Assembly (NCBI GenBank): GCA_951406725.2
Contig: OX597839.1
Span: 11,098,001 to 11,162,000 of the forward strand
Source of the DNA: Octopus vulgaris
Taxonomy: Eukaryota
Direction of reading: 5' to 3'
Length of the DNA: 64,000 nt
This document shows, piece by piece, positions 17,504-59,227 of the stretch; position 1 is the stretch's first letter, and every line of letters begins with the position of its first letter. The notes beneath the pieces were generated by a model, which saw only the letters and a list, made by a program, of their open reading frames with translations, did not search any database and was not told the origin of the DNA. Made by a program: the position numbers and the translations under genes.

Positions 17504-17670
17504 TGACCTTATCTTTAGAGATGAAAAGTTTATTCAATATTTACATCTACACAATGTTTAGACGATTTTGATCATTGATTGTCATCAGGTGTCTTATTCC
17601 TTATTAAACCAATCGAAACATAATGTAGATGTAAATATTAAAAAGCGTTTCATCTCCAAAGATGAGGTCA
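17504..17670. repeat. About 55-bp imperfect inverted repeat with degenerate hammerhead-like motif on minus strand
   Basis: Arms about 17504-17559 and 17615-17670; minus 17593->17548 reads GACAC-CTGATGA-...ATCGTC-TAAAC-ATT-GTGT. Confidence 0.7.
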
Positions 17671-18000
17671 ATAGTCTGACACATTAGATAATCTTATTAA
17701 CAATATATTTGTCTCAGATATTTAGTTAGATGTGTTGCATTCACTCTGTTTCATTTATTTGCTAATATTTATACATTTATTAGGTAAAACATTACTTGAC
17801 AGATTTTGAGGTAGATGGATATCAGTGACTAGTGGCTGGGTGGATGTACATATAAAAGTCTTTGACACCTTGCAATTATATAGTGTTACAATAAATCAGA
17901 GGGGTCTCGACCTTTTGTAGCTAACGACTCTTTTCCATCAAATGGTGTTTTACAAATACCCTCTCTTCAGCTTTTGGCAATCAAATAATGATTTTAATAA

Positions 18001-18418
18001 TCCTTTCTACTATAGGCACAAGACTTGATATTTGTGGGGAGGGGATAGACAGTTACATTGACCTCAGTGCTCAGCTGGTCCTTATTTCATCAACCCTGAA
18101 AGAATGAAAGATAAAGTCGCCCTCAGTTTAATTTGGAATTGGAATGTAAAGACGACAAAATGTTGTTAAGGATTTTGTTTAGCATGCTAATGGGTCTACC
18201 AGGTTATTACCTTAATGATAGTAATAATGATCCTTTTTACTAATGGCTTGAGGCCTGAAACCTTGGGCGAGGGGCTAGTCAGTTACATCAACCCCAGTGT
18301 TCAAAGGCTAAAAGGTAAAGTCAATCTTGTTGGAATTTGAACTTGCAATGAAAAGGTGGACAAAATGCTGCTAAACATGTAGTCCAGCTTGCTAACAAGT
18401 TTGCCAGCTCACCACCTC
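18001..18418 (-). mobile_element. Two head-to-tail diverged SINE B2 copies
   Basis: Each shows AAAG(G)TAAAGTC, ATTTG(G)AA and GCTAA...CCAG..CC motifs of family B, with AGGCACAAG-type tail. Confidence 0.7.
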
Positions 18419-18459
18419 AATAATAATAATAATAATGATGATGATAATAATAATAATTA

Positions 18460-18735
18460 ATTCGTTTATTGGCCACAAGGGCTAACAAAAATCAATTAAA
18501 ACATAAAGGGACAAAACACAGGACGAAAGTTACAAAGGGTTTTGTCCGTTTGAAAAAGGTCCGTATACAAAAGCAGGATAACAACAAAATGTAAGTAACA
18601 ATTAAAACTCCCAATAAGGGGAGGTGCTTCGAAAGGTTACTCGTGAAAAAACCCATAAAAGCCACGGGAGCCTGGTCAAAATTGGGGCAGAGAGCCCTTT
18701 TCTCCTTTTATATTTCCTTTTAATTTTCACAGGTG
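18460..18735 (-). mobile_element. Probable LINE 3' UTR fragment inserted in (AAT)n, sharing terminal sequence with SINE B
   Basis: Minus strand ends TTAGCCCTTGTGGCCAATAAACGAA versus SINE B TTAGCCCCTTGTGGGCAATAAAGAA; (AAT)n on both sides. Confidence 0.6.
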
Positions 18736-19940
18736 TAATAATAATAATAATATTAATAATACGCAGATTAGTTTAATGAAACAGAAGCTAATTTAGCATA
18801 ATGGCTCCTTCCAGCATGTTGTTCCTCTTTTTAAATATTTACATGGAATAGTGCTCCCTAAGTTACATTTTTATGGAATTTACTGAAGAAAGTGGTGATT
18901 TATATAATAAAATTACATTCATCCTTGGCTCAACATTAGTCCTGTTTCTCTAATCATTGATATTTGTATTTTATTCTTGACAAAGAATTTTTAAAAAATT
19001 CATGTTTAGTTTTGAAAATGTGTTTGAAATATAATTATTGTATTCAGTTCAAATATTTTATTTCTAAGAGAAACCGTGACCCCTCCAAACACAGTGCTCC
19101 CTTGACATTTACTGCTTCTTTATGAGCTCACAACACTTCCATGGGGTGCTACCATCCAAATTAAAAATGAAGTAAAAAAAAAACGTGTTCTTTAATTATA
19201 ACAACACTAATTATAAATATTTAATTATAATAACACTAACATGATCTGTAACAAATCCATACATGTATAGACAAAAGCCTATGGAGATAAACCTTATATT
19301 GTTACTATGGAAACATAACTTTATATATATATATATATATATATAATGTTACTGCTATGGGAATTTACCTTATGTATATATTGTTACTATGGGAATTTAA
19401 TTTATAATATGTATTATTATGATGGAAAAAATATAAGTAATAGTACTACAGTATATATATGTTTTTAATAGTTACAATATCTTGACTTTACTCCAAGATG
19501 CAAATGTTATTAAAGCTTAACGAGATATTTATTCTTCCTTGTTAATTGCCATCACGTCTTCATGGTTGATGTCCTCAAAGAATCAGAGTGTGTCTGTGGT
19601 GTGCAAAAATAGACAAGAACATTTCTGTAGCTAATTCTAGGGAGTGTATATTGAGTAATATGTGTTTGAAACACTTTAACACTATTCCATTTATTTCACA
19701 TTCTCTGCACTATTTACATAACCATTATTAGATTGACATTTAAGCATATGGCATCTCTTCCCATAAAACAGTGTTCTAGTTTTTTTTTTTTTACCTTATT
19801 TTATTAATAATGTTTGACTTAACCCTGGTTCAGGTTTTACACCACTGGAGCATCACAGTCAAAGGAAAACTATTAATAATATTCATTATTATTAAGATTT
19901 ACAAAACCTTAAAATTTATCATTTCTGTTTTATTTTCCAT

Positions 19941-20306
19941 CTTTTTTACTTGTTTCGGTCATTAGGCTGTGGCCATGCTGGGACACCACTTTGAAGAGCT
20001 TTTTCAGTCAAACGAATCAACCCCCACTACTTATTTTCTTAAGCCTGGTACCTATATTATCAGTCTTGTTTGCCAAACCACTAAGTTACAGAGAAGTAAA
20101 TACACCAGCACCAGTTGTCAAGTAATGGTGGCAGACAAAGACACACACACACAGAGGCTTCTTCCAGTTTCCACCTGAAAATTCACTCAAAAGGCTTTGG
20201 TCGGCCCTAGGCTATAGTAGGAGACATTTGTCCAAGGTGCCATGCAGTGGGACTGAACCCGGAACCATGTGGTTGAGAAGCAAGTTTTGTACCACACAGC
20301 CATGCC
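19941..20306 (-). mobile_element. SINE family A
   Basis: Reverse complement similarity to 445-834. Confidence 0.85.
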
Positions 20307-20532
20307 TTATAGATTGCTTCTTCACAAAGCAGGGGATTTTTTTAATGGGTAAATTAGTTGAGTAAATTAACTTTGCCAATTCTCTGAACTCAGATTGAAA
20401 GCTCCACCCTGTTTTCTAGTATGACTTTTACAATTTAGGTTAGCATCAAAGGAAGCACTACTTGTCTGGATCAGTCGTCTTGTTTGCACACTCCTGGTTA
20501 TGTCCTAAAGCAAAAACAAGGCTTTATCATAA

Positions 20533-20690
20533 GTATGGCTGTATGGCTAAGAAGCTTCTTTTACAATGTGATTTTGGATTCACCCCAACTGAGCAGCATC
20601 TTAGTCAAGTACCTTCTACTATAGGCTTAGGGGTCAACAAAAGCCCTGTGGATTAAAATTTGGTAAAAGGAAACTGCAGAAGCCCGTTAG
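20533..20690 (+). mobile_element. SINE family A, diverged 5' half
   Basis: TGGCTGTATGG head, CTTCTACTATAG, GGAAACTGCAGAAGCCCG. Confidence 0.6.
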
Positions 20691-22176
20691 AGAGACTGAT
20701 CTTGTTTCTGTATGGCATACATTTAATGTATTTCCCTGTTTTTAATACTACCACCTGATCCAATAGCTAGGTCTCCTATCTGGATACAACTTCTTCCCCA
20801 TCAGAATGGAGGTCCTAAAAAAAAGGATTCTGGGTGCTGCTGCCTTTCTACTACTGATTAAACCACCAATCCTTTTGATACCAACCCACATGAAACTGTG
20901 CCTTGTTCTGTGATACAACTCTTCCATTTTAAAGTATTTCAGACAGTAGCTTAATAATAACGGTTATTTTTAACAGAATCTTTTGTTCTTTTCACAATGA
21001 ATTGAAACCATGGTAATCTTATTTCAAAGGGGTTAAAATATCGAGATGAACCTTTGGGAACTATTCTGTCCTGTCATTTCAGACGTAGTTTATATGTGAC
21101 TACATTGTGAAATATGTACTTTTAAACATGGTATGATGTGATTTAAGGGACATTTCAGCTACTATTTCTAACATGTTCAGTGATTAGTTAGAGGCTTGAG
21201 TTCTTAATAATTGTATACATTAGCCATTTGAGGTCTAGTAGAAACATTTTTGGTATCAAGTTTAGTGCTTTTGTTATTAATGGTATGGCACACTTGTCTT
21301 TCTTCATATTCTTGGGAGGTCTAACCTAACTTCTGATTTCTTACACATTTTCTCAGATTCTTCTGAGGCAACATTTTGCTTTCCAGGTGTCAAATAATTA
21401 ATTATATTGTAATTTCCAGTTGTAGTAATTAGTATTAATTACGAGCATTCATTTGGCAACCACATCATTGCGTCTTCTCCGTCTATTTGGTTATTAACCA
21501 TTTGATGACCATATTCCTATTGATATATTCTGCCTTTTGTGATTCAATTGATTCTGAAAATAATCTAGAATTTAGAGCATTATTTCCTGACTGGCTCCCC
21601 TAAAACTCTAGGGTTCTACAAGAGGTCACTAGGGGTTCTTTAAGAAATAGTAATAAACAAGTTAGTTATATGCAAATGATTCTTTGTGCTGCTTGTGTAT
21701 TTATTTCATTAAACTTGCACAACATATTGCTTAAAGTAGTGAAATCTTGAGAAAGACAATTTTATGATTTGTTTAATGTCTTATAAAATTTAACTTTATG
21801 AAAGAGAAAAAAAGACTAGTAAAGGCATATAATTTTTATGTAGGAATTGAGTCAGGGAATGTGTTACATGGGTTCCTCAGTGCTGATTTACAGGCAAATA
21901 ATTATCTTTGACATTAAGCCGATGTTAACAAAAGGTTTTTTTAATGTATATATGATGGTAGGTTTGAAATGAAATATGAACAGTTTAAATTAGGAGGTTT
22001 TGTATCACACAACCGGAAGCCGTCTCAGACCAGTTAATTTATTGAAAGGGCTAAATTCTCATGAGACTTTTTTCCTTGTTTACTTTCCAGTGGTCTTTTC
22101 ACCACACATAGTATCACTTACCAAAGACTAAAAAATCTGCATTTTTCTGGCTTCCATTTTAATCATAGCAACATTT

Positions 22177-22595
22177 CGGATCTTTTCGGTTTGAACGGCA
22201 GTTTTTTCTAGTGGTGTCATATGAAATTGTCACCCATAATTATGACCCTAGAATCGATCTATTGCATTTCAATCTCTTTTAGGGTTGAGGTTAGGGGTGG
22301 GGGAAGGGTATCTTTTTTTCTTCAGAAATGTAAATAAACCCAATCTGTTTCTTAAACGAGGGACATATTCATATGGCACAGAATGCTTTTTAACTCAATA
22401 GACGTCATTGATTGGTTGAAATTGCAGAAATTGAAGGAAAAAAAACCAACAAATATCTTACAATCTATAGAATTTTCTCAATAAAGCCAAGAGAAAAAGA
22501 TGTTTTATAAACACATTCTACCAGTATACGCAGTTTCAAATGTTTGAATTACCTAGAAATTATGTTAAAAACTGCCATTCAAACCGAAAAGAGCC
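22177..22595 (+). mobile_element. Family M TIR element, full length
   Basis: TIR CGGATCTTTTCGGTTTGAACGGCAGTTTTT / AAAAACTGCCATTCAAACCGAAAAGAGCC; flanking AACATTT at 22170-22176 and 22596-22602. Confidence 0.92.
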
Positions 22596-23075
22596 AACAT
22601 TTCTAATCCTTCTGGATTGGTTTAGTATGTGTGTGTTGGGTGAGGGTTTCTGCAACGTTTGTTTTCTCTGTACGAAGTCCATATAACTTAGTTACTCTTA
22701 CAAGTAAATTACATGTATCTGTAAATTTGTGTTGAAATGTTTGATCTTTGATTGTTACAAAATAGCTCTTTTCTCTATTTCTTTCTTCAAATCTTTGTGC
22801 AATCAACTCCAGTATTCTCATCTTAAAATACTTTGTGGTGTGTGTGTGTGTGTGTGTGTGTATACATTCATATATGCAAATATTAAGGTTTGTTTTTTAG
22901 TTCAATTATGATAAAAATTTTTACAGTAATCCGGTGGGTGATTCTATACTTTTGTAGAGTACATACTTATTACTCTTATAGGAAGAATGTTGTTGACAGT
23001 GACTTTGAAGTTTCAGCCTACTAAGCCATCGTTGCACAGTCCAATGATGGCTTAGCTGCCCAAAACTTTACAGTC

Positions 23076-23480
23076 ACTCTTTAACTTGTTTCAGTCATTT
23101 GACTGTGGCCATGCTGGAGCACCGCCTTTAATCAAGCAAATCGACCCCAGGACTTATTCTTTGTAAGCCTAGTACTTATTCTATCAGTCTCTTTGCCAAA
23201 CCGCTAAGTTACGGGGATGTAAACATACCAGCGTCGGTTGTCAAGCGATGTTGGAGGGGGGGACAAACACAGACACACAAACATATACACACACACACAT
23301 ACATATATTCATATATATGACAGGCTTCTTTCAGTTTCCGTCCACCAGATCCACTCACAAGGCTTTGGTCGGCCCGCGGCTATAGTAGAAGACACTTGCC
23401 CAAGGTGTCACGCAGTGGGACTAAACCCAGAACCATGTGGTTGGTAAGCAAGCTACTTACCACACACCCAATCCTATGCC
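23076..23480 (-). mobile_element. SINE family A, full length
   Basis: Reverse complement of 445-834. Confidence 0.9.
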
Positions 23481-23507
23481 TATATCCTTGTATAAGAATA
23501 ATAAATA

Positions 23508-23580
<73 letters not shown>

Positions 23581-24303
23581 TCTAACATTGTCGTTGTTTC
23601 CATTTAACAGTTCTCTTTTTTTAAATCTTGGTAATATTGTACTTGATTCAAACTTCATCATCGTCATTAATGTGTTATTATTGGCAGCATTAGACAAAGT
23701 GTCTTGCTGTATTTTATGTCTTTTTTTCTTCTTCTTAGTGTGTCAGTTCAGATTGCATTAAGGTCATCTTTGACTTCCCACTTTCCAGTTTCTATAAAAT
23801 ATATACCAGAGATATATTGAGGGTGTTGATCTAATTGACCGTTCCCTCTCTTAACATCTACGCCCCCGCTGTACCCACTTCAGAAATTACTGTTATAATA
23901 ACCAAGAAAGATGTGGCAATTTTTTTCTTAATACATAATTCTCTAGCATATTCTCAATTGGAATTAGAGTTTGCTTCTTTTAAAAAGAAGTTTATGGTAA
24001 CAGTGCAGAGATACATATGTATGTAAGGGTGTGCATGCGTATTCACTTAATTATGTTGGTAATTAAGTGTAATGAATGGAAATGGTTTGTAATAAAGTAG
24101 CAAATATGTGAAACAGTAACATAACAGTTATTGTTACAAAGAGGCAACAACAACATATTTTTTTTTTGTCTGGCTTTAAATTAGCTTTCATAATGTTTAA
24201 TTTCATTTTATGTCTCTTCTAAATATAAATTTAAGATTCTCCTGGTTACAGGCTACAAGCTAAAATGTCTCACAGCCAGTGTTATTAAATATTTCAATGT
24301 ATG

Positions 24304-26050: not shown

Positions 26051-26080
26051 CATGTATATGTCTTTTTTTTTAGTCTTTTA

Positions 26081-26435
26081 GTCTTTTACTTGTTTCAGTC
26101 ATTTGACTGTGGCCATGCTGGAGCACCGCCTTTAGTCAAGCACATTGACCCCAGGACATTTTCTTTGTAAGCCTAGTACTTATTCTATCGATTTTCTTTT
26201 GCCGAACCGCTAGGTTATGGAGATGTAAACACACCAGCATCGGTTGTCAAGCGATGTTGGGATATATATATATATATATATACATACGATGGGCTTCTTT
26301 CAGTTTCCGTCTACCAAATCCACTCACAAGGCTTTGGTTTGCTCGAGGCTATTGTAGAAGACACTTGCCCAAGGTGCCATGCAGTGGGACTGAACCCGGA
26401 ACCATGTAGTTTGTAAGCAAGCTACTTACCACACT
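26081..26435 (-). mobile_element. SINE family A
   Basis: Reverse complement of 445-834, small internal deletion. Confidence 0.9.
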
Positions 26436-27734
26436 ATGTGTGTGTGATGGTCTGTTAATGTTCGTCCCCCAGGTTGGCTTGGGTTGCATGGTTTAGCATG
26501 TTCCAAAGGGTGTGAGGACTGCATTATGCTCCAATGCCTGCTTTATATGTGGCATGATGTGATTAATCAGAGGCTGAATAAAATATTTCTTTAAGGACTG
26601 AGCATTCGATAATTGTATGAGGTTTTTGAAACCAGTTTGTGGGGTGGGGCAAGCCTACTGATTTTCTTTCAAGCTTACTGTTTTCTCCTCAAGGAGGAAA
26701 TATCTATTGACTCAGAACGGCTTCTACAATCATCTGCCACTCTGTACATAGATAAATAAATGAATAACTATCTAGGTGCAGGCATGTGTTCTAGGGCAGT
26801 ATACTACTATAACCCAGAGCTGACCAATGCCTTGTGTGTCAATATGGTAGATGGAAACCCAAAGGAGCCTGTCGTGGCTGCAGTCCACTGACTAGAGAAA
26901 GTAGAAGATAAATAATGGATGGTTATGTATCTAAGATTGCATTATCTCGTATGTCCTTCACTGCATAATGTAGGGAGATAATAGGTATCTGGCTGCTATT
27001 TCTACCAGGCTAACCAACATCATGGAGGCTCCCTCACTGATTCAGTCTATAATCTGGTGTTCTATACAAGACAGGATGTGTGTCTCATCTGCTGATTGAC
27101 CATAAAATTGGAACTATTCCGTGGCCATAAGAAGCACTTTGTGTCAACTGGATGGATGTTATTATTCTCTTCAATGGCATTATTTAGTGCTGCATTATTG
27201 AACATCATTTCTAGCAGAATGTCTAACAACTTCTCTAAGGATAAAACATGTCTTTTCAAAGCAGCAAGGCTATATCTTGTCACTGGTGTTTTATTCCAGT
27301 TCAATTACCGATCTACAGGCAACAGATGTTTTAGAGATATTACAAAACCACTGGAAGGATATGCAAATTAGAAATTCTATGCTGCAATTCTTTACAAAAG
27401 GGAAGGAAGGACAGAATTAAAAAAAAAAAAAGCAACAACAAAAATTAAAAAATGAAACTGGTTCTGCTCTCATCTCCTTAAACTTTCTCATTATGAGCTT
27501 AAATTTGCCTATGGAGAAAAATTCTATTTGTAATTGGAATACGTTAATGAGGGTATTTCTGTGGAAGTGGAGGTTGCTTGATATAGAAATAGCAACTAAA
27601 TTTCCCTCAGAACTGACCTTTCTAGTTAAAATAAAAATGTGTTGTGAAGGACGTTCAGTTCTACAAACCATTCCAAAGCAAACATTGGGGTTTGGTGCAA
27701 TCTTCTGGTTCACTGGCTCCCTTTGAACCATTAA

Positions 27735-27952
27735 CCCTTTTTAAAACAACCTGGCTGAAACCACCTCTGGCACTGTAGTACACATGTCTTGTTTTCATAA
27801 GTTTTGAATTAAAATCTTCCACCAAACCTTAGTCGCAATCTATGTTCTTAACACCAGCTTAATGATAACTAAGTTGTTTTCCTAAATTCTTTGTTATATT
27901 TAAAATTAATTGAAACACAGAGCACCTCAAAATAAATACAGTGACAAAAGGG
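27735..27952 (+). mobile_element. MITE family P1 inserted in an old family C copy
   Basis: TTAA 27731-27734 and 27953-27956; CCCTTT/AAAGGG termini; C-like sequence either side (about 27645-27730, 27957-28020). Confidence 0.85.
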
Positions 27953-28355
27953 TTAAACCCATGACAGTATGGAAAATGCATGTTGAATGGTGATGGTGGT
28001 AGTGGTGCTGATGATGATGATGATAGGCAAATTGAGCGAAATAATCTTATATACGTGATGATTGAATATAAACTAGAATGATTGTGGATAGAATGTTTTG
28101 GATGATAATCTCTTTAATCAGAGGTTAATTAGAATGAGGGTAGGGCTAAAGGGCTAATAACAACAACAGAAGTGGCTGCAGCAACACTAACAATATCTGT
28201 CCAAACATTTGGCTAAATATCACACAGCTGAAGCATTGAAATAAGCACCGATTGTGGCTTCATAATTAGTCTGAATTATTCATAATTAACTGTGAACATT
28301 AATTGTCCTTGGAAGTCCTGCCACCACTGTGCAGGTTAGATATAACTTTTCTGTA

Positions 28356-28392: not shown

Positions 28393-28394
<2 letters not shown>

Positions 28395-28562
28395 CCGGAG
28401 TAAACACATAAATGTGAAACAAGGTGGAAAAAAGAGTACTCAAATACCAGGGGTAGAGTAATATGCTTTATTTAAAAGCAGCAAAACAAAAACTGTCCGA
28501 CGAACGGGAACGTGAAACTCAGAGTAACAGGTTTTGTTGAATTTCTGCTGATTTTAAATAAA

Positions 28563-28564
<2 letters not shown>
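28393..28564 (+). mobile_element. Short fold-back element in microsatellite carrying a hammerhead-like motif (Penelope-like)
   Basis: Between (TG)n and (TA)n; imperfect inverted arms 28461-28496 and 28527-28568 around the motif. Confidence 0.65.
28493..28530 (+). ncRNA. Type-I hammerhead-like ribozyme motif (U4->C variant)
   Basis: CTGT-CCGACGA-ACG(GGAA)CGT-GAAAC-TC-A-GA-GTA-ACAG: all three stems pair, GUA triplet. Confidence 0.65.
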
Positions 28565-28927: not shown

Positions 28928-28958
<31 letters not shown>

Positions 28959-30344
28959 CAGATGAACAACTAAGGATCACATGGGAAAATCATACATGAG
29001 GGAGATATTCATCCCTCATCAGTTAGCAACCAAGACCATCACAGTTTCACACCATTATTGATGTGTGAGTGTGTGTGTGTATATATGTGCGCACATGTGT
29101 GTATGTGTCTTTATAAATACACACACTCACACACATCAGTTTCTGCTTGGTGAAAGTTTGAATTTGAATTAATAAACTTCTTAGATTTAAAACTTCCCCT
29201 CCCTCTGTTCCTACTCCTGTGTAATTCTTTTAACTCATGGGAGACTTAAATTGCAAATTGATGTTAATATCTGCTATCAGATGAATAATTTCACATTTTC
29301 ATCTTAGTTTAGATAGTCTCTGGGGGCAGAATGTTGGAGCCCCCTCTATATCCCTGCCTCCCTTTTTATCAGTCTTCTTCATAGTGGTGGTATTCCTTCT
29401 GACTCCCCTCATATCCTATCAAATAACACAAATACTAGAAGGAAATACTTATGCTGGGGATTTTTTTTTTTTTTAATGAGGCCTGTTTTTGATGAAAGAG
29501 AGCTAGTGGTACACACACACACACACACATATTTCTGTGTGTGTGTGTGTGTGCCAAGGAGGACAAAATTCTATGACCCTTCTCTTTCACCCTTGTCATT
29601 TTGTTGGGTAGCAGTGGGGTGGGTTGTAATTTTTAGTAAGCACTCCTGAGACAGAGCATATGCACGCACACAAAAACACTCTTAATGAACATGCTCCCCC
29701 AATATACAGGCATGAACATGCATACCAACACACACACACAGACACACTTTCCTTTTTTTTTTCACTTTTGAGAATGTCTTAGAAAATAATTTATATGCTT
29801 TTTGGTTTGTAAGAAATCTAACAAGAGTCAGAGATATTAAGGAATCCTAGATGCAAGACATGCTATTCTGATGCCAGACTGGGATGGGGTTGCAGGAAGC
29901 AGTGCTCATTGCTTTTGTTTACCTCAGTTGTTTTGTTTCTAACGAGCACTTAATTCTTGTAGTCTTTATTTTTCTTTACTTTGGGGTAGATTACCCTTTT
30001 TTCTTTCTTCTTTAATTGTTTTACAAGCTGAAATATTTGGCCTTAAGATGAATTAACTCCACTCAATCAAGAAAATCATGTCTTTTATTTTTTTTAATTT
30101 TCCTTCTCATCTTTTTAGTTTTGTCTGATTTTCTGAATTTTTTTCTTTGTCTTTTTAATTTTGTGTCTGAGATTTGCCTAAAAGTAATGGCCCCCACCTG
30201 GTAAAGCTTTCGTTTTTTTCCCCCCCTGAAAACACACAACAGTCTAGAGTAACCTGGCAAGAAAAGTTACATTGGAAGTCAGAGGAATGAAAGAAAATAA
30301 GAACAGCAGGGAATCCTCAATTAAATTACAACAACAGCAATAAT

Positions 30345-32745: not shown

Positions 32746-32766
32746 GGGGGCCTATATATATATATA

Positions 32767-32995
32767 GGCCTCACATTCAAAATGTGACTGCGTGTGTACC
32801 ATTGGCGATTTTTTTTTCCCTCCCCATCTTCCCTTCTTTGGATCTTTCCTTTTCCTATGTTTCTGACAAAGAGCTCCACTCGAAACGTTAAACCCTCCTT
32901 TTTTCGTTCTTTCCTGAGCGTCCAATTATACTATACTTGTTCCACGTCCTCGCGTTATTGTGTTTTCTCTTTGTGTTTTCATGTTTGGATTAACT
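32767..32995 (+). mobile_element. Pyrimidine-rich element in (TA)n with hammerhead-like motif
   Basis: (TA)n on both sides; similar layout to 38905-39060. Confidence 0.65.
32859..32893 (+). ncRNA. Minimal type-I hammerhead-like motif, degenerate
   Basis: GTTT-CTGACAA-A-GAG(CTCCA)CTC-GAAAC-GTT-AAAC; stem I GTTT/AAAC perfect; G8 position mutated to A. Confidence 0.6.
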
Positions 32996-33345: not shown

Positions 33346-33581
33346 ATATATGTATAAGTACCAGGCTTTACAAAAAATTAATGAATACTGAGGTTGATTC
33401 GTTTGACTAAAAGAATTCAAGGTACTGCCCCAGCATGGCTGCAGTCTAATGACTGAAACAAGTAAAAGCTAAAAGACGATTAGTATTAGTCTAATTATGA
33501 GAGCTTGAGTCAGTGATAGATAAAACTAAGGTGTGTACCAACTCTACAGCCCTACTTGATTTAGCAGAGACACAGCTTAAA

Positions 33582-33800
33582 CCCTTTAGCTTTCAGATTA
33601 TTTTGTCAAATATAATACTTATTTATTCACATTGTTCTGAATTGATTATGCACTTATCTCGTATCTTTGAGATTTCAATGACGTTACTTTTTATTCTTAG
33701 AATGATGTTGTAGGATAGGTGTGAGAGGCTGGATGGGACAGTTTCTTTATAAAAATGGGAGAATATTTGGACCAGATATGGCTGGTTTCAATGCTAACGG
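33582..33800 (+). mobile_element. MITE family P2
   Basis: CCCTTTAGCTTTCAGATT ... AATGCTAACGG-ATAA. Confidence 0.75.
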
Positions 33801-38948: not shown

Positions 38949-38981
38949 TTTCTGATGAAGAGCTATGCTCGAAACATAAAA
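38949..38981 (+). ncRNA. Minimal type-I hammerhead-like motif
   Basis: TTT-CTGATGA-A-GAGC(TAT)GCTC-GAAAC-ATA-AAA; canonical CUGAUGA and GAAA, perfect 4-bp stem II, weak stem I, stem III mismatch. Confidence 0.65.
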
Positions 38982-39060
38982 AATTATCTCTTTTTACTGA
39001 GCATCAAACTAATGCATTCCTTGTTATTGTTAATTTTAATGTTCATTTATTTGAGTTGAC

Positions 39061-40701: not shown

Positions 40702-41460
40702 GCAAGCTGGCAGAATTGTTAACACCCCAGGCAAAATGCCTGTCTTTACATTTGAGTCCAAATTCTGCTGAGGTTGACTTTGCCTTTTATCCATTCGATG
40801 TTGATAAAATAAGTACCAGTTGAGTACTGGAGCTGATGTACTCGACTTACACCTTCCCCCAAAATTGCTGGCCTTGTGCCAAAATTTGAAGCCATTATTT
40901 TTAAGGTAGCCAGCTGAAAGAATTGTTAAAAGGTTGTAAAAAAAATGCTTTGCATATTTCCTTCTGGCCCCATATGTTCTAAATTCAAATACTACTGAGG
41001 TCAACTTTGCCTTTCATTCATCAAGGGTCAATAAAATAGACATCATGGGGTCAAATTGATGGTGTTGTATCAAAATGGGGGAAAAAATTATTATTATTTT
41101 CAGGGTGGCTAACTGGCAGAATCATTGAAATATTGGAAGAAAATGCTTTGTGGAGGTCAACTTTGCCTTTCATTCATCAAGGGTCAATAAAATAGACACA
41201 TGGGGGTCAAATTGATGGTGTTGTATCAAAATGGGGGAAAAAATTATTATTTTCAGGTTGGCAAACTGGCAGAATCATTGAAATATTGGAAGAAAATGCT
41301 TTGTGATATTTTGTTCAACACTTTACGTTTTAAATTCCAATACCACCAGAGTTAACATTATCTTTCATCCTTTTGAGATCAATAAAACCCAGTACTAGTC
41401 AGGTACCGCGGTTGATGATAACTGACTAATCTCCTCCTTCAAATTTCAAGCCTTGTTTCT
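40702..41460 (+). mobile_element. Stack of head-to-tail SINE B2 copies including a tandem duplication of about 155 bp
   Basis: CTGGCAGAAT-type heads at about 40707, 40914, 41113, 41266; 40997-41152 nearly identical to 41153-41305. Confidence 0.8.
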
Positions 41461-43500: not shown

Positions 43501-44552
43501 GAAAATAGGTTGTGCCCTAGATCTTCTTGCTTTTTCATCTTATGGCACATAATTCTTACACTCCAACTCTACTTGGTGACAGTGGTTGGTGGTGATGGTG
43601 GGGGTGGGGATGGAGACATTATAAAACAAACAAATCACTTCTCTGTTGCAGGTCAGGTGGGTGCTTCTGTTGTTCCTCTGCCAACAACCAAGTTTCTCTG
43701 GCGGGGACAGCTCTTAGTCTAAATATCAAGACAGCCGTTTGATGATGATGGCTCTTGACAAACTCTGTTTTCATAGTAATTCTATATTCAGAAAGAAGTT
43801 TCTCCTTTTCTTGTTGTTGTTTAACCCCAGGTCAGAGCCTGTTAAAAAAAAATGTCCCTGTTGTAAAACGGTGACCAAAACAGTCAAGGAAATCCTGCCC
43901 CACCCCCAAAATCCTGTTTGCAATAGTTCTTCCAGCTCTTTAACTTCTGAGCTCAAAATACCACTGAGGTATTTCTCAGCCTTCTAGTAGTAGCAGTAGT
44001 AGTAGTAGTAGCAGTAGTAGTAGTAGTAGCAGTAGCAGTAGTAGTAGTAGTATTGGTATCAATATATTTCTGTAGTAAATATTTTTGCGGCTAGATCATG
44101 TTGCAGGCGTGCTTGTGGTTGGGATGGGGGCTGTGCTTAGGGTGCAGGCACATTTGACACTGTCTAATCATGTTTACCTAAGTACACGGATTATGATAAC
44201 GCTTCAGTGAACTCGCGCTTGCGGGTAGTATTGTGTGGCACTGCGCTTGCATTTGTGTGTGTGTGTGTGTGTCTATATATGCACATTAAAAAATATATAT
44301 TATACAAACTGACAAAGAATACACCAGATATGCAAATATATACACCATGTGTTGGTGGCTTTCTTTCTATGTCACCACACATAGATGAGCATTGCGTGTT
44401 GGATAGAATGTGGAACCAGTGATTACCAAATAATATATGGCAGCACAATAGTGGCACAGCAAAAATTACAAGAATTATATTTGAAAAAATGTGAAAATAT
44501 AAATCAAGCTTCTAAATAACTTGATAATTGTGTTTTATTTATTAAAGAGATA

Positions 44553-44947
44553 GGCGCAGGAGTGGCTGTGTGGTAAGTAGCTTGCTAACCAGCCACATGG
44601 TTCCAGGTTCAGTCCCACTGCGTGGCATCTTGGGCAAGTGTCTTCTGCTATAGCCCCAGGCCGACCAATGCCTTGTGAGTGGATTTGGTAGACGGAAATT
44701 TAAAGAAGCCTGTCGTGTATATGTATATATATATAAATGTGTGTCTGTGTTTGTCCCCCTAGCATTGCATGACAACCGATGCTGGTGTGTTTACGTCCCT
44801 GTCACTTAACGGTTCAGCAAAAGGGACCGATAGAATAAGTACTGGGCTTACAAAAGAATAAGTCCCGGGGTCGAGTTGCTCGATTAAAGGCGGTGCTCCA
44901 GCATGGCCACAGTCAAATGACTGAAACAAGTAAAAGAGTAAAAGAAT
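44553..44947 (+). mobile_element. SINE family A, full length
   Basis: Near-identical to 445-834. Confidence 0.92.
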
Positions 44948-45741
44948 AGATAGTTAATGGTTTTTCTATTGTTTGATGAATTTTTATATAGTGCAGGTGC
45001 TTCAGTATTTTTTTTATAGGTGCAGTTATGGCTATGTGGTAAAAGTTTGCTTCTCAAAGCCTCTCATTTATATGTATGTGTATATATATGTGTGTGTGTA
45101 TGTCTTCGTTGTTTCTTCGTTGATGCTTCTTCTTATCAGTCTTTGAAATCCTGAAATGGATTATGGGCATTGCCTTTCTCACTGGCTAAAAAATAATAAA
45201 GAAAAAGGGATGTCTTAAACAAGTTCCCAGATCAGACTAAATAGCATCTAAACAGGCCTGGTATGAACTTTTATTGCTAGTTTGCCTCCAGGACAGGCTG
45301 AAGAACTTATGTGCAGCAGCAATTTTATCCTTGCTTTTCTATGCTTGTAGGGTTGAGTGGTTTTTCTGAGGCAGGGTTTACTAACCAGTGCCCTTCCTGT
45401 TACCCAAACCCTTCAGTCCTTTTTAGCAGGGACACACATGGTATAGACTGTGTACCTGAATAGATGTGCTATAGCTCCTGCCTTTCCAGAACTGACAGGG
45501 CCTGGGAATGTAAATAGGTGTGGGGTGTAGATCCATTGAAGTCCCTGTATACCACACATCCTGGATGTAAAGACCTGTGGCCTGTTCCATTTCATTCAAC
45601 TGGCTACCCAACTTCTCCTGGAGGTGACCCTTACCTACTTAACAACAACAACAGTTACATTGTACCCTTTGCTGATATACAATAGGGAATTATTGATTGA
45701 AGATTAATTTTCTTCATAGTGTTTGAAAATCATAACAACAA

Positions 45742-49224: not shown

Positions 49225-49603
49225 TGGTAAGTAGCTTGCTTACCAACCACATGGTCCTAGGTTTAGTCCCACTGCGTGGCACCTTCGGCAAGTGTCTTCT
49301 ACTATAGCCTCGGGCCAACCAAGGCCTTGTGAGTGGATTTGGTAGACTGAAACTGAAAGAAGTCCGTCATATATATATATGTATGTATGTATGTGTGTGT
49401 GTCTGTGTTTGTCCTCCCAACATCGCTTGACAACCGATGCTGGTGTGTTTACGTCCCCGTCTCTTAGCAGTTCGGCAAAAGAGACCGATAGAATAAGTAC
49501 TGGGCTTACAAAGAATAAGTCCCGGGGTCGATTTGCTCGACTAAAGGCGGTGCTCCAGCATGGCCGCAGTCAAATGACTGAAACAAGTAAAAGAGTAAAG
49601 AGT
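49225..49603 (+). mobile_element. SINE family A following a truncated P2 fragment
   Basis: A body from TGGTAAGTAGC to (GAGTAAA)n; P2 fragment at about 49155-49224. Confidence 0.9.
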
Positions 49604-50136
49604 ATATATATATATATAATCTTTTTCCTCTCTGTTAATCATTGTGCTGATTTGTAAGTGTGTGTATATATACATGTAACAGTAACATGTGTAGCTTGTT
49701 ATCCTCTTTCTTTATTTAATGACCTGTCATGTATTATCTTAAAAATGAGAACAACAAAACCTGCTGTACAATAACCACCAAGTAGCTAACTCTTGACTAG
49801 TACTCTGCTCCCTCTTTATCTCCACTTTCATGTACTACTTAAGCTGCACCAAAGACACTCTGTGTGTGTGTGTGTGTGTGTGTGAGTGTGTGTGCAATGT
49901 CCTGAATAGTGAAAAAGTTTGCCTCACAGCCATGAGGTGCTGGTTTCGTTCTCTCTGCTTAGTCTTCTGTCATAAACTTAGGGATGTCCGCAGTTTTTGT
50001 CAGTGAAATTAGGTAAGTGAATTTGATTGCACCCACGAATCAAAGGACTAGTCTTGTCACATCTGGTGCCATATTGGAGTCAGCCTGCAGTTCGTGTTAA
50101 TGGAATACTCAACCGGCTCCACTATAATTAATATAT

Positions 50137-50360: not shown

Positions 50361-50711
50361 CATGGACTGTAATTGTAATTCAGAAGTCCAACATCCTTGT
50401 GTCATGTTGAGTTTACCTGTGGTTTAAATTTAAGGTTACTCAGTCAAACTAACTCACTAAGGTATAATATGTAGGTAGTTCTGATGATCAAATAACTGGT
50501 GTATTCATTCTTGAAATCATTGTGATACATATCTAATCAGCTTAACTGTTTAGTATTTGAACTAGGCATGTCTAGCACAAATATTCTGTTTAACACTTCT
50601 GAATCCACTGCATTTGTTTCAGTTAATGTTGAGAATAATGAGGAATTCAATAAAATAACTAGTGTTTGAGACATAACATGAAATTCTGATGGGGGTTTTT
50701 GAAGGTTTTAA

Positions 50712-50931
50712 CCCTTTCGCTACCAACCCGGCTGAAACTGACTCTGGCTCTGTGTGCAAATGTCTTATTTTCATAAGTTTTGAATTAAAATCTTCCACCA
50801 AACCTTAGTCACAATTTATGCTCCTAACACTAGCTGAATGATAACTAAGTTATTTTACTAAATTCTCTGTTATATTGAAAGTAATTGAAAGAAACACAGA
50901 GCATCTTAACATAAATGCAGTAACTAAAGGG
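50712..50931 (+). mobile_element. MITE family P1 nested in an older, oppositely oriented P3 relative (about 50590-50992)
   Basis: TTAA 50708-50711 and 50932-50935; flanks resemble 61410-61590. Confidence 0.85.
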
Positions 50932-50992
50932 TTAATTTAAAACAGAAAGTTTGTATCATAGAACCAAGGGTGGTTAGTATTAAAGAGGTTAA

Positions 50993-52766: not shown

Positions 52767-52853
<87 letters not shown>

Positions 52854-54832: not shown

Positions 54833-55000
54833 GGCACAGGCGTGGCTGTGTGGTAAAAAGTTTGCTTCCCAACTACATGGTTCTGGGTTTAGCCCCACTG
54901 TATGGTACTTTAGGCTAGTGTCTTATATTATTGCCTTGGGCCGACCAAAGCCTTTGTAAGTAGATTTGGTAGGCAGGAACTGATAGAAGCCTATTGTGTG
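54833..55000 (+). mobile_element. SINE family A, 5' half
   Basis: GGCACAGGCGTGGCTGTGTGGTAA head. Confidence 0.8.
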
Positions 55001-56183
55001 TGTGTCTCTCTCTTTTCAATTGCATAAACTAAAAGTCGGAGGGGGACGGGATAAACTACTTGCATCAACTTGCTATAAAAGCAGGTAGTAATTTTACCGT
55101 GTATTTATTCTTAGTGCAAGTTTTGAAGAGTGCAGTTTGATTTTAACAGTTATTTTTTCAAAGCTATGATGTCTGTCCTTGTTTGTCCCCTCTATGTTTA
55201 GCCCCTTGTGGGCAATAAAGAAATACATATATATATATAAAGGTGGTAGGAAAGGATCTATTAGATAATGTAGCCCTAAATACCTTATACCTATATCTAT
55301 ATCTAATTGAGGACTACATTAGGGAGAAAATCTGTGAATGGTAACATATGGAATGCCTTTGATCATGGATCTTAGATCTTCATGATCAGGTTCTGTCAGG
55401 GACTAATCATCATCATCTTACAAACCGACTGGCAATTTTTTTCTTCTTCTGCTTGCTTGATTTATTGTGTGAAGTCAACTTTGATATCTCCTGAACTAAC
55501 TGGGACAGGAAGTTTAACCCCCGACTCCATCCCGTTTAACCTTTTGCTTATGTTGGTTTAAGGATTTCTCTTGATTATGTAACAATGGCATTCAGAGAGA
55601 ACATGGAGTGCAGCCCTTCCCATCCTCCCATCCCCTCTCTCTCTTTTTTGTGCACCCATCGTCAGATCACACTGACCAATCAGCGTTATTCTCCCTCTAA
55701 ATGTGCCTGCTCCTAAACCAACCTTGTTCATATGCATTGATGCACCAAATTTTCTATAGAGTTTAATAGGTGTCTCCATCCAGCAACCTGACATGCTAGA
55801 GATAGCAGCTAGATTTTGAATTCCTATTCTGCTATCTTTAAAACAGTACAAGGAAGAACACATCAGACCGCGGTCATGCTGGGGCACTGCCTTGAAGAAT
55901 TTTATTTGAACAAATCAACTCCACTATTTTTTTTTTTAAGCCTTGTACTTATTTTATCAATAACTTTCATCAAACTGCTAAGTTACAGACTGTAAACACA
56001 CCAACACCAATTATCAAGTGGTGATGGTGGTGAGGGCAAACTCAGCCGCAATGACAAATATTCTTTCTCTCTCTTTTTTCTCTCTTTTCTTAAGTCTTTT
56101 TAAAATTTTTCTTCTATTTCTACTCTCTACTCTGTTTTGCTTTCTATCAATCTTCACTTTGTACTCCACTTATTAAACTGTGA

Positions 56184-56597
56184 TGGATCTTTTCGGTTTG
56201 AACGGCAGTTTTTTCTAGCGGTGTCATATGAAATTGTCACCCATAATTATGACCCTAGTGTCGATCTATTGCATCTCAATCTCTTTTAGGGTTAGGGTTA
56301 GTTAGTGTTAGGGTTAGGGGTGGGGGAAGGGTATCTTTTTTTTCTTCACAAATGTGTTTCTTAAACGAGGGACATATTCATACGGCACAGAATGTTTTTT
56401 TAACTCAATAAATGTCACTGATTGGTTGAAATTGCAGGAAAAAAACAACAAATATCTTACAAACTATAGAATTTTCTCAATAAAGCCAAGAGAAAAAGAT
56501 GTTTTATAAACACATTCTACCAGTGTACGAAGTTAAAAATTTTTTTAGTTACCTAGAAATTATTTTTAAAAACTGCCATTCAAACCAAAAAGATCCG
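56184..56597 (+). mobile_element. Family M TIR element, full length, with TTAGGG-like repeats
   Basis: TIRs as at 22177; ACTGTGA at 56177-56183 and 56598-56604; telomere-like tract 56286-56331. Confidence 0.92.
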
Positions 56598-57648
56598 ACT
56601 GTGAGTAAAGGAAGCTAGAAATGAGAATGTTGAGCATGAAATATATAAAGAACTAGGAATCAAAACCTCACCTTCATATTGTAAACTTACCTCATCACAA
56701 ACTTACTGTTTATTCTGCACCAATTTTCATTAAACTTCAATATTGAAACCAAAACACACACACACACTTTTCTTCTTCATCGGTGAAACCCTTTCTTTCT
56801 AATAGATATCCCTGAAGGCTGTGGCCCCTAGTTCCCCGAAGGCTGTGGCCCTAGATCTTCCTCTCAGCAAACTACCATAGCACTTCCATTTCCAAAGTGC
56901 CTCTTCTGGTTGTTGACATAACTCAACATAAATTAAGGATTTATTTCTAATTAAACTGTCAGTACACCTCTTCAACAGTTGTTACAGCTATTGATTTTCA
57001 TAATGTGTGCCATGTGTTGCGTGTATGGGCATTCATGTGTGTGTGTGTATTTAAATCTTTTTTTAATTATTGTTAATGCCTGTTCACACACTTCGGCCAT
57101 TTCATAGTATGTATATATTTGCCTCCGTGTGTGCATTTGTGGATGCGCATTCTAGTACTTTGTGGGTGTGAATGAGAATTTTGTGAAAGCAAGATTTGAG
57201 AAAGTTGTGTAAAATATTTGTTTTCTGCTTGAGATCACTGATTCTGTGTCAAGAGTGAGAAATAAACCTTTACCTCGTTAGCAAGCGATCAAGTGTTTAT
57301 TTTCTTGTCACCTTGTTCACCTGTTAGGTCCTGCCCCTAGCTATCATTTTATTATAAATTGCTTTACTTACACAGGGCTTCTTCTAATTGAAAACTCTCC
57401 TTCCAGGCCTTTGCATTTTGTAAACTTGTTATAGGCATATTGGACAAATACTTTAATATATTCTGTAATAATGATTGAAACTGAGTAAGAACTTTCTCAA
57501 ACATGGCTATTGGGTTAAAAAGCTTGTTTCCCAATCATGTTGTTTTGAGTTGTGTATCACTGCACAGCAATTTGGGCAGCTGTCTTTTGCTATAGCCCCA
57601 GGCCAACCAAAATCTTGTGAGTGATTTGATAGACAGAAACTGAAAGAA

Positions 57649-57875
57649 AGCGGTGAGGTGGTAGAAACGTTAGCATGCTGGGCGAAATGCTTAGCGGTAT
57701 TTTGTCTGCTGTTATGTTCTGAGTTCAAATTCCGCCGAGGTTGACTTTGACTTTCATTCTTTCAGGGTCAGTAAATTAAGTACCAGTTACACACTGGGGT
57801 CGATGTAATCAACTTAATCCGTTTGTCCTTGTTTGCCCCCTCTATGTTTAGCCCCTTGTGGGCAATTAAGAAATA
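57649..57875 (+). mobile_element. SINE family B monomer inserted in SINE A with 14-bp TSD
   Basis: AGAAACTGAAAGAA at 57635-57648 and 57876-57889. Confidence 0.92.
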
Positions 57876-57954
57876 AGAAACTGAAAGAAGCCTGTTGTAG
57901 TGTGTGTGTATATACCCATGTGCATATGTTCGTCTGTTTACATCTGCAATCGCT

Positions 57955-58230
57955 TACATGGCACCTTGGACAAGTGTCTTCTACTATTGCCTTGGGCCAA
58001 CCAAAGCCTTGTGAGTGGATTTGGTAGACGGAAACTGAAAGAAGCCCGTCTTATATTTGTATATATATCTATGTGTGTGTGTATACATTTGTGTGTCTGT
58101 GTTTGTCCCCACAACATCTCTTGACAACTGATGCTGGTGTGTTTATGTCCCCGTAACTTAGCGGTTCTTCAGCTAAATGCGGTGCTCCAGCATGGCCACA
58201 GTCAGGTGACTGGAACAAATAAAAGAGTAA
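57955..58230 (+). mobile_element. SINE family A, partial
   Basis: GGCACCTTGGACAAGTG to AAAGAGTAA with internal deletion. Confidence 0.85.
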
Positions 58231-58791
58231 GCGCTGGGGTTGAAAGGTGGTCGATCTGTTTGACTAAACCTTTTAAGGCAGGGCTCCAGCATGGCTAGTC
58301 AAATGATTAAAACAAGTAAAAGATAAGATAGATATGCACATACACATGTGTTTGTGTGTGTGTTTGGTATGTATTGTACCAGTTAGTGTCTTTAACAAAG
58401 GAAAAAAGCAAATTAACATAGCAGTAGTTAATGTGCCAGTAGTATATTTGTGCATAAATTTATGTGCACACATGTATGCGTGTGTGTGTGTGTGGCTTCC
58501 TCAGTAGGAATGTTTTGTGTCCCTGACCTGTGCAGGCCCCCAAATACTGGTGATATTGATGCAGCTGGTGTATAGGTTGCTGACTGTAGGAAAGAATGTG
58601 AGCAGGAAGGGAACTGTAGTGGGTTGACTTTCTGGGGTTGAGAGAGGAGGATCGGAATTAAATAGCTAATATGTGTGATTAAATGCGGCTTCTGTCTCTC
58701 TGTTGTCACTTGCAATCTTGTGTGACTTGGTAAAAGAAAAAGAAGAAAGAAAAAACTTTCCTTTTCATGCCTCATGAACAGATATGTGTAT

Positions 58792-58829
<38 letters not shown>

Positions 58830-58925
58830 CCATAAATATTTGGCTCTTGGTTGCCTTTAACAAAGTCCATTCACTTTATTTACATTATTTACATTCGATG
58901 GATATTTGTCCTCATCTTGTTTGTT

Positions 58926-58970
58926 GTGACATGTTTTGGCTGATATATCCTCCAGCCTTCTTCAGGTGTC
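58926..58970 (-). ncRNA. Degenerate minimal hammerhead-like motif
   Basis: GACAC-CTGAAGA-A-GGCTGG(AGGATATA)TCAGCC-AAAAC-ATGTC; GAAA reads AAAA. Confidence 0.55.
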
Positions 58971-59019
58971 TTGGGGGAAATTTCGAACCTGGGTTCTCAT
59001 TGTTTGGTATTTTTCAATG

Positions 59020-59057
<38 letters not shown>

Positions 59058-59181
59058 GTTCTGGTCACTGCTTGGAATCGAACTTGGAATCTTTGGGGTT
59101 AGTAGCTTGTGCTCTTAACCACTATGCCATATGCCCATGGGCAACCTTAGGAATGAGAATCCAGGTTCGAAATTTCCCCAA

Positions 59182-59227
59182 GACACCCGAAGAAGGTTGG
59201 AGGGTACATCAGCCAAAACGTTGTGTT
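59182..59227 (+). ncRNA. Degenerate minimal hammerhead-like motif (inverted copy)
   Basis: GACAC-CCGAAGA-A-GGTTGG(AGGGTACA)TCAGCC-AAAAC-GTT-GTGTT; stem I GACAC/GTGTT. Confidence 0.55.

What the first reader, a model, noticed from the sequence alone, without database searches (positions are those of the whole stretch)
17548..59227. Five distinct repeats in one window carry minimal hammerhead-like cores
Seen: motifs at 17548-17593(-), 28493-28530(+), 32859-32893(+), 38949-38981(+) and 58926-58970(-)/59182-59227(+) keep the order stem I, CYGANRA, stem II, (G)AAAC, NUH, stem I'. Stem sequences differ yet still pair (ACAC/GTGT, CTGT/ACAG, GTTT/AAAC, TTT/AAA). Stem III is minimal or palindromic (AAC-GTT, ACTC-A-GAGT), the form known to need dimerisation in Penelope-associated hammerheads. 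Three lie in fold-back structures and three adjoin (TA)n. Inference: this genome hosts a very abundant, diverse set of ribozyme-bearing non-autonomous retroelements (retrozyme-like or Penelope-derived).
Basis: partly seen in the sequence, partly recalled or inferred. Interest (0 to 1): 0.8.

Follow-up and report, generated by a model that had tools for sequence, protein, structure and literature searches.

The report
Octopus SINE with Penelope-type hammerhead end
These motifs are worn copies of a minimal self-cutting "hammerhead" RNA pattern, likely left by Penelope-like jumping genes in octopus DNA (a known kind of thing), but one sits in an abundant short element that starts like a tRNA and has Penelope-style insertion ends, so it is likely a SINE that borrows Penelope enzymes instead of the usual LINE enzymes.

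Summary
All six motifs are at the stated places and exceed shuffles (3 with at most 1 mismatch to the published minimal-hammerhead shape; 0 in 25 shuffles). They form four families, not five (32.9 and 38.9 kb are related), and no copy is fully intact. The DNA is octopus-type. Only the 59-kb family could be tested across copies: 21,881 contigs of one run (17,718, 17,214 and 2,889 in three others) restore a complete minimal core by majority. Minimal hammerheads in dispersed Penelope-like (PLE) ends are published for many animals, so the general finding is ordinary. The 59-kb element goes further. It is a ~290-nt unit with tRNA-type A/B boxes, an (AAT)n linker, the hammerhead and a ~30-nt optional tail, inserted as two back-to-back arms inside a 15-nt target duplication. 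Other copies join the same head to 3' arms of different length. Its end spacing matches the anole Poseidon element. Best reading: a Pol III SINE mobilised by a PLE. The partner PLE, transcription and cleavage were not shown. No tandem, retrozyme-type arrangement was seen.

The parts
17548..17593 (-). Motif 1: most decayed minimal hammerhead (C3 at 17588, predicted cut after 17553); G12 changed, helix II does not pair next to the core
17613..17670 (+). Inverted partial arm of element 1; begins at the 3' half of the core, where it has G12 intact; pairs with 17504-17562
   Evidence: no flanking direct repeat of 6 nt or more found
28393..28563 (+). Element 2: two back-to-back unequal arms between a (TG)n and a (TA)n run; left arm is the inverted, longer 3' end
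28493..28530 (+). Motif 2: hammerhead-like core with C at position 4, 3-bp helix II and a near-palindromic 4-bp helix III; family consensus untested
32766..32994 (+). Element 3: ~230-nt insert flanked on both sides by (TA)n; no inverted arm
32859..32893 (+). Motif 3: minimal hammerhead, G8 changed, palindromic helix III intact
38949..38981 (+). Motif 4: both core boxes and 4-bp helix II intact, 15.2-16.2 pair lost; same family as motif 3; element ends at (TA)n near 39060
58866..58880 (+). Left copy of an exact 15-nt direct repeat (target-site duplication)
   Evidence: chance expectation about 1e-5
58881..59141 (-). Arm A of element 5: full-length, tail-less monomer (261 nt): tRNA-type head, (AAT)n linker, body, hammerhead, 3' end
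59074..59129 (-). Pol III type-2 promoter pattern: A box 59129-59119, B box 59083-59074
   Evidence: only match in the window, 0 in 100 shuffles
59012..59058 (-). (AAT)n linker between head and body
   Evidence: loose ends at 59144
58926..58970 (-). Motif 5A: hammerhead of arm A, G12 changed, 3' stem I strand damaged by a small deletion
59142..59311 (+). Arm B of element 5: 5'-truncated copy in opposite orientation, with tail
59182..59227 (+). Motif 5B: hammerhead of arm B (C3 at 59187, predicted cut after 59222); U4 and G12 changed here but present in the family majority
59281..59311 (+). ~30-nt tail present on arm B only
59312..59326 (+). Right copy of the 15-nt target-site duplication

Best explanation
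The six motifs are decayed minimal type-I hammerheads in four repeat families that were likely spread by Penelope-like elements (PLEs), and the 59-kb family is a tRNA-headed short element with a hammerhead-bearing, Penelope-style end that is likely a SINE copied by PLE enzymes. Proposed working of the 59-kb family: (1) RNA polymerase III would transcribe the ~290-nt unit from its internal A/B boxes (boxes shown; transcription inferred). (2) The 3' part, hammerhead plus ~90 nt, would be bound by the reverse transcriptase/GIY-YIG protein of an autonomous PLE with a similar end (inferred; partner not found). (3) The nuclease would nick both strands of an AT-rich target about 15 nt apart (duplication shown), and reverse transcription would start at two internal sites about 30 nt apart, giving two back-to-back arms, one with and one without the tail (structure shown here and in other copies; steps inferred from the anole Poseidon work, PMC11167929). 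(4) The hammerhead has no stable helix III, so it would cut only as a dimer or with protein help, slowly; it may persist mainly as part of the protein-binding end (inferred). The window copies are likely dead, many by CpG decay. Families 2 and 3/4 sit in (TA)n runs and are likely end pieces or short derivatives of microsatellite-targeting PLEs.
For: Family core: majority letters in four runs give U4 (92-98% of depth), G12 (77-90% on arm B, 73-84% over both arms) and a restored helix II pair (76-94%); no other core position is listed as differing in 20% or more. The result fits the published consensus: short helix I, bulged base after A9, G10.1-C11.1, longer helix II, palindromic 15.2-16.2. Abundance: 21,881, 17,718, 17,214 and 2,889 contigs laid; summed depth in core bins 1.4-2.6 million against 43.8 on the unique flank in run X1 (the tool warns this is no copy number; order 10^4 or more). 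PLE insertion signature: inverted 5'-truncated arm and 30-40-nt optional tail are described for PLEs; here a 15-nt duplication, tail on one arm only, two end classes in contigs (X1: 387+139 loose ends at 58876/58881, 256 at 59302), and spacing from predicted cut to the two ends of 53-58 and 89 nt against about 56 and 90 nt in Poseidon (cut near nt 29, tail nt 85-119). Head belongs to the family: 296/202/230/58 contigs run from arm B's start into the (AAT)n-type linker; 9 of the 27 joint rows shown join the head's start (59121-59143) to 8 different points of the 3' arm (59184-59276); head depth is 0.23-0.34 of core depth in all four runs. 8 of 20 majority differences examined are CpG-type decay. 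Organism: a protein labelled Octopus sinensis begins with this repeat's reading (87% identity over 68% of a 44-aa query).
Against: No autonomous PLE with this end was found; no genome is held and no RT/GIY-YIG frame was recognised among the 71 frames of 90 aa or more listed for the window (by eye). No listed contig spans head, linker and hammerhead together: the tool skipped 59012-59068, and joints with sides of 23-27 nt at 80% likeness are flagged as weak; 226+147 joint rows were not shown. The head is not called a tRNA by ARAGORN or Rfam and the window copy does not fold as a cloverleaf (z=0.15); its tRNA origin rests on the A/B boxes. Absence of TTTT on the sense strand fits Pol III but is weak: 89 of 490 background stretches and 886 of 1000 shuffles also lack it. 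Families 1, 2 and 3/4 have no tested consensus; motif 2 departs from the published shape. None of the seven stretches folded (head and six motifs) is more stable than shuffles. No cleavage or transcription was shown.
Confidence: 0.72

Rival explanations
1. All motifs, the 59-kb one included, are plain truncated PLE ends; the tRNA-type head belongs to a separate SINE and joined the PLE end once or a few times by template switching.
For: Heads have only 0.23-0.34 of core depth; no listed contig spans the whole unit; an earlier unchecked note found such a join to be a one-off in another genome.
Against: Hundreds of contigs per run continue from the body into the same linker; the head start is joined to 8 different 3'-arm points in three runs; lower 5' depth is what 5' truncation gives.
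Confidence: 0.13
2. The repeats are non-LTR retrozymes: tandem hammerhead units that are cut to monomers, circularised and reinserted.
For: Type-I hammerheads in non-coding repeats; retrozymes are proposed to be non-autonomous PLE derivatives.
Against: Retrozymes are defined by tandem units with canonical type-I hammerheads. No head-to-tail copy in the window; ends run into diverse flanks (agreement 0.41-0.47 in the DNA runs); the core is the minimal type. Most loose-end and joint rows were not shown, so a tandem minority is not excluded.
Confidence: 0.07
3. The 59-kb family is an ordinary LINE-driven SINE that once captured a PLE end as its body; the hammerhead is a passenger.
For: SINE 3' parts are often swapped; octopus tRNA SINEs are known.
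Against: The end is a fixed non-repetitive tail in two length classes with inverted arms, not a poly(A) or short tandem tail.
Confidence: 0.05
4. Motifs 1 and 2 (and near-cores such as 42003) are chance matches or parts of fold-back DNA elements and never were ribozymes.
For: Loose descriptors give 1-3 hits per shuffle; motifs 1 and 2 fail the published shape; no relatives could be fetched.
Against: Both sit in back-to-back unequal arms like element 5; motif 1's second arm supplies the intact 3' core box; motif 2 has a near-palindromic helix III that pairs with itself at -7.4 kcal/mol. This rival does not touch families 3/4 and 5.
Confidence: 0.15

Closest known systems
Minimal hammerheads (min-HHR) in pseudo-LTRs of metazoan Penelope-like elements (Cervera and de la Pena 2014, PMC4209133)
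   Same: Type-I topology, short helix I, bulged base after A9, G10.1-C11.1, palindromic 15.2-16.2, many families per genome, mostly single dispersed copies, some pairs on opposite strands 100-700 bp apart; molluscan examples from Lottia and Crassostrea.
   Different: Octopus does not occur in the supplement file searched (one file could not be searched). No tRNA-headed carriers in the text read. No PLE ORF shown here. Motif 2's C at position 4 was not seen in the passages shown.
Insertions of Penelope/Poseidon-clade PLEs (Craig et al. 2021, PMC8557442; Frangieh et al. 2024, PMC11167929)
   Same: Inverted 5'-truncated arm, ~30-nt tail on one end, AT-rich target, near-identical spacing from hammerhead cut to the two ends.
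   Different: Non-coding, ~290 nt, with an internal Pol III promoter pattern in place of the RT-endonuclease ORF and of tandem pseudo-LTR promoters.
Schistosoma Sm-alpha / Sj-alpha SINE-like hammerhead repeats (as reviewed in PMC6765202)
   Same: Pol III promoter followed by a hammerhead in a short non-coding repeat. This is the real precedent for 'SINE plus hammerhead'.
   Different: Those are described as tandem repeats cut from multimeric transcripts, with canonical hammerheads; here the hammerhead is minimal, copies are dispersed, and ends carry the PLE tail/inversion signature. The passages read name no mobilising partner.
Animal non-LTR retrozymes (PMC7229834; bioRxiv 10.64898/2026.07.22.740005)
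   Same: Non-autonomous, type-I hammerhead, proposed PLE dependence.
   Different: Defined by tandem units; no tRNA or promoter mentioned in the preprint (0 occurrences of 'tRNA', 'promoter', 'octopus'). Not tandem here.
Octopus tRNA SINEs of Ohshima and Okada 1994 (OR1, OR2 and a third family)
   Same: tRNA-derived, abundant, octopus.
   Different: OR1 and OR2 are cited as CORE-SINEs. The 1994 paper and its sequences were not seen, so identity of element 5 with one of these families, or with a Repbase/Dfam entry, is untested.

Membership tests
PLE-type minimal hammerhead | Conserved core CUGANGA ... GAAA ... UH in family consensus | tested here: met
   Family 5 majority letters in four runs. 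Families 3/4: the two copies complement each other's defects, two copies only.
PLE-type minimal hammerhead | Same, for families 1 and 2 | tested here: inconclusive
   Single loci; no relatives fetched; not recovered.
PLE-type minimal hammerhead | Bulged base after A9 and G10.1-C11.1 pair, helix II of 4 or more bp | tested here: met
   Motifs 4, 5A and 5B; motif 3 has 3 pairs; not met by the window copies of motifs 1 and 2.
PLE-type minimal hammerhead | Minimal palindromic helix III | tested here: met
   Motifs 3 and 5B palindromic, motif 2 near-palindromic; lost in 1, 4, 5A by CpG-type changes.
PLE-type minimal hammerhead | Self-cleavage as dimer | not testable with these tools
   Needs an in vitro assay.
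Penelope-like element (autonomous) | RT plus GIY-YIG ORF | tested here: not met
   No such frame in the elements; none recognised among 71 window frames. The elements are at most non-autonomous or fragments.
PLE-mobilised insertion | Inverted 5'-truncated arm and optional 30-40-nt tail | tested here: met
   Element 5; inverted arms also in elements 1 and 2; none in 3 and 4.
PLE-mobilised insertion | 3' end shared with an autonomous PLE of the same genome | not testable with these tools
   No genome held; one protein search among longer proteins gave one non-PLE hit.
tRNA-derived SINE | Internal A and B boxes at the 5' end | tested here: met
   element 5 only.
tRNA-derived SINE | Recognisable homology to a tRNA | tested here: inconclusive
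   No ARAGORN or Rfam call on the decayed window copy; isotype not settled.
tRNA-derived SINE | Short, non-coding, dispersed, high copy, target duplication | tested here: met
   duplication seen at one locus.
tRNA-derived SINE | Pol III transcription | not testable with these tools
   Only contigs available; run X15 is RNA by guess and shows no strand or start.
tRNA-derived SINE | 3' tail shared with a partner LINE, or A-rich/tandem tail | tested here: not met
   End is a fixed PLE-type tail in two length classes; no LINE library could be compared, so a LINE match is not excluded.
Non-LTR retrozyme | Head-to-tail tandem units each with a type-I hammerhead | tested here: not met
   shown rows only.
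Non-LTR retrozyme | Circular RNA form | not testable with these tools
   No raw RNA reads.

The most novel reading that the evidence does not exclude
Octopuses carry tens of thousands of copies of an undescribed class of SINE: a dispersed, Pol III-driven, tRNA-headed element that took its 3' end (minimal hammerhead plus tail) from a Penelope/Poseidon element and is copied by PLE enzymes, extending the SINE-LINE partnership rule to the telomerase-related retroelements and giving a ~290-nt natural substrate that defines what PLE protein needs in cis.
Probability: 0.5. Interest if true: 0.65.

Novelty: new variant of a known kind. Interest (0 to 1): 0.45.

Why it matters
The headline claim, many hammerhead-bearing repeats in an animal genome, is published and only extends to octopus. 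The 59-kb family matters more. SINEs are defined as parasites of LINEs; a dispersed tRNA SINE with the PLE tail and inversion signature would show that PLE enzymes also work in trans on Pol III transcripts. With very many copies it offers a natural mutational record of which bases of the PLE end are kept, and so a way to ask the open question of what PLE hammerheads are for, since cleavage was not needed for insertion in vitro (PMC11167929).

Tried and rejected
Own genome: not held. Rfam: no hammerhead or tRNA match; microRNA hits are microsatellite noise. Metagenome pattern scans for families 5 and 3: 0 matches each. Protein-level searches for relatives of families 2 and 3 read as peptides: nothing; these blanks say nothing about the DNA families. 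Search for a PLE protein overlapping element 5's end: 1 candidate, a cysteine-rich protein without RT or GIY-YIG family match. Sequencing runs: no RNA holder on record; not used as evidence on expression. Single-strand folding: not more stable than shuffles, as expected for minimal motifs, so uninformative. TTTT absence: too weak. Relationship of motif 1 to motif 5: weak (z=2.3, 8 of 200), not accepted. Target duplication for elements 1 and 2: none of 6 nt or more in the ranges searched; for 3 and 4 only TA-run repeats. Clustering of 5' truncation at the predicted cut: not evident (1 of 9 shown head-to-arm joints near it). First descriptor script failed and was fixed. Literature: ten full-text searches gave no report of an octopus hammerhead SINE or a PLE-mobilised tRNA SINE; the library lacks most subscription papers, Repbase and Dfam, and three relevant papers were not seen (Lunse 2017, Albertin 2015: not held; Ohshima and Okada 1994: reference lists only).
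Full report
Setting. The window is AT-rich animal DNA (32-40% GC) dense in microsatellites and short repeats. No genome is held. A protein labelled Octopus sinensis begins with a reading of the 59-kb repeat, and runs under several coded species labels hold that stretch, so the source is an octopus or close relative.

Observation. With the published consensus shape, 3 sites pass at one mismatch against none in 25 shuffles, 4 at two against 0.28, and 8 at three against 3.08 (1 of 25). Descriptors without the bulge were weaker (0 strict hits; 3 against 1.15; 6 against 1.95). All descriptors were written after seeing the motifs. Rfam finds nothing. Motifs 3 and 4 are one family (z=8.7) and mend each other: 3 has lost G8 and one helix II pair, 4 has lost the 15.2-16.2 pair. 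So there are four families. No copy is fully intact. The three fold-backs and three (TA)n neighbours are real.

I laid contigs of four runs on 58828-59445 at 80% likeness: 21,881, 17,718, 17,214 and 2,889 contigs. Majority letters undo the window's defects: U4 in 92-98% of depth, G12 in 77-90% on arm B (73-84% over both arms; 45-51% on arm A alone, which attracts copies sharing its change), and the weak pair in helix II is Watson-Crick in 76-94%. No other core position is listed at the 20% threshold. The majority motif is CUGAUGA, a bulged A, a G-C-closed helix II of 5-6 pairs, GAAAC and GUU, with a 4-5-pair helix I. This matches the consensus in the supplement of PMC4209133, where several rows have the same C-G-U-U ending. 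Summed depth over the core is 1.4-2.6 million against 43.8 on unique flank in X1; the tool warns that this is no copy number, so I take only the order, 10^4 or more. 8 of 20 majority differences examined are CpG-type. Families 1, 2 and 3/4 could not be tested this way; pattern and protein searches for families 2 and 3 were empty, family 1 was searched within the window only.

Anatomy of element 5. An exact 15-nt direct repeat (58866-58880, 59312-59326; chance about 1e-5) encloses 431 nt. On the minus strand, 59141-58881 is a 261-nt unit: A and B boxes (only match in the window, 0 in 100 shuffles), an (AAT)n linker, a body, the hammerhead and 53-58 nt more. Back to back with its start, 59142-59311 is a 5'-truncated copy with the hammerhead and 89 nt more, so about 30 nt longer at the end. 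Contigs show both end classes running into diverse flanks (X1: 387 and 139 loose ends at 58876 and 58881, 256 at 59302). PLE insertions are described with exactly this inverted truncated arm and an optional 30-40-nt tail, and in the anole Poseidon element the tail lies between two internal reverse-transcription starts about 56 and 90 nt after the hammerhead cut, with cleavage at an ATT motif; the duplication here ends in ATT. Is the head part of the family or a one-off neighbour? 296, 202, 230 and 58 contigs run from the start of arm B into the same linker; 9 of 27 joint rows shown join the head's start to 8 different points of the 3' arm; head depth is 0.23-0.34 of core depth in all runs. Against: no listed contig spans the whole unit (the linker was skipped), the joint sides are short, most rows were not shown, and the window head is not called a tRNA.

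Mechanism. Shown: boxes, majority core, two arms, tail, duplication, abundance, recurring head-to-arm joins. Inferred: Pol III transcription; recognition in trans by a Penelope/Poseidon-type protein; two-strand nicking and two internal starts; slow dimer- or protein-dependent cleavage. Published work found minimal motifs inactive as monomers and weak as dimers, and cleavage protein-dependent and not needed for insertion in vitro, so the motif may be kept as part of the recognised end. Elements 2, 3 and 4 lie in (TA)n runs; microsatellite bias is reported for Neptune and Naiad PLEs, and Naiads lack canonical hammerheads, so a Neptune-type source is my guess, untested. No tandem unit was seen, so the retrozyme reading is not supported.

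Comparison and novelty. Many diverse, mostly solitary minimal hammerheads per genome, including opposite-strand pairs, are published from cnidarians to reptiles and in two molluscs; that part is a new member of a known kind. A Pol III promoter followed by a hammerhead is known from schistosome SINE-like repeats, described as tandem. Retrozymes have been proposed as PLE parasites, without tRNA or promoter. A dispersed tRNA SINE with PLE tail and inversion signature was not found in ten searches. It may still exist in Repbase, Dfam or the 1994 octopus SINE paper, none of which I saw. Unchecked notes of this scan describe tRNA-bearing PLE-type repeats without ribozymes in other genomes; they are leads only.

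What I saw of each paper. PMC4209133: parts 1-3 of 4 of the text and passages of supplement file 2 (file 1 not searchable). 10.64898/2026.07.22.740005: part 1 of 5 and a term search; its supplements are closed and list the species sampled. PMC11167929: abstract and passages. PMC8557442, PMC7229834, PMC6765202, PMC4824008, PMC4758252, PMC5804259, PMC6962438: passages. PMC3531059: term search; supplement not readable and could list this family. Lunse 2017, Albertin 2015, Ohshima and Okada 1994: nothing beyond reference lists. Hammerhead numbering, the A/B box consensus and the TTTT terminator rule are recalled.

Verdict. Observation partly confirmed; interpretation partly supported. Overall a new variant of a known kind, interest 0.45. 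The novel case, a PLE-mobilised tRNA SINE class not yet described, has probability about 0.5 and would merit 0.65.

Noticed in passing
Passes two of my descriptors; possibly an old fifth family.
   Followed up: partly
window 28955-29030 (-): First core box followed by a small hairpin but no second box, in a ~100-nt piece ending at (TA)n; possibly another decayed hammerhead-bearing end.
   Followed up: partly
window 59152-59311 (+) and protein P0001: The frame that starts a predicted Octopus sinensis protein isoform (a cysteine-rich, probably membrane protein with no curated Pfam match) is this repeat's reading; with the family-majority base at 59243 the frame would stay open through hammerhead and tail. 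Either exonisation or mis-annotation in P0001, and possibly a trace of the partner PLE's ORF start.
   Followed up: partly
window 441-834, 23073-23489, 26071-26434, 44535-44952, 49225-49617 and others: Very abundant ~390-nt SINE-like family, more than 15 pieces in the window; probably one of the known octopus SINEs (not compared).
   Followed up: no
window 10835-11445: Second abundant SINE-like family; here its 3' ~190 nt are repeated three times head to tail.
   Followed up: no
window 7205-7433, 27731-27957, 50707-50935, 33574-33800, 60771-61000: ~230-nt elements with short terminal inverted repeats, MITE-like, in two related families.
   Followed up: no
window 22178-22598, 56185-56599, 1-147: ~420-nt element with ~25-nt terminal inverted repeats and internal telomere-like hexamer repeats.
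   Followed up: no
window 40997-41305: Tandem duplication of a ~156-nt unit, 95.5% alike.
   Followed up: no
table 5c, run X2, 59137 to 58880: A joint at depth 325 with a head-like piece in opposite orientation after the head start, suggesting some copies have two head-bearing arms back to back.
   Followed up: no
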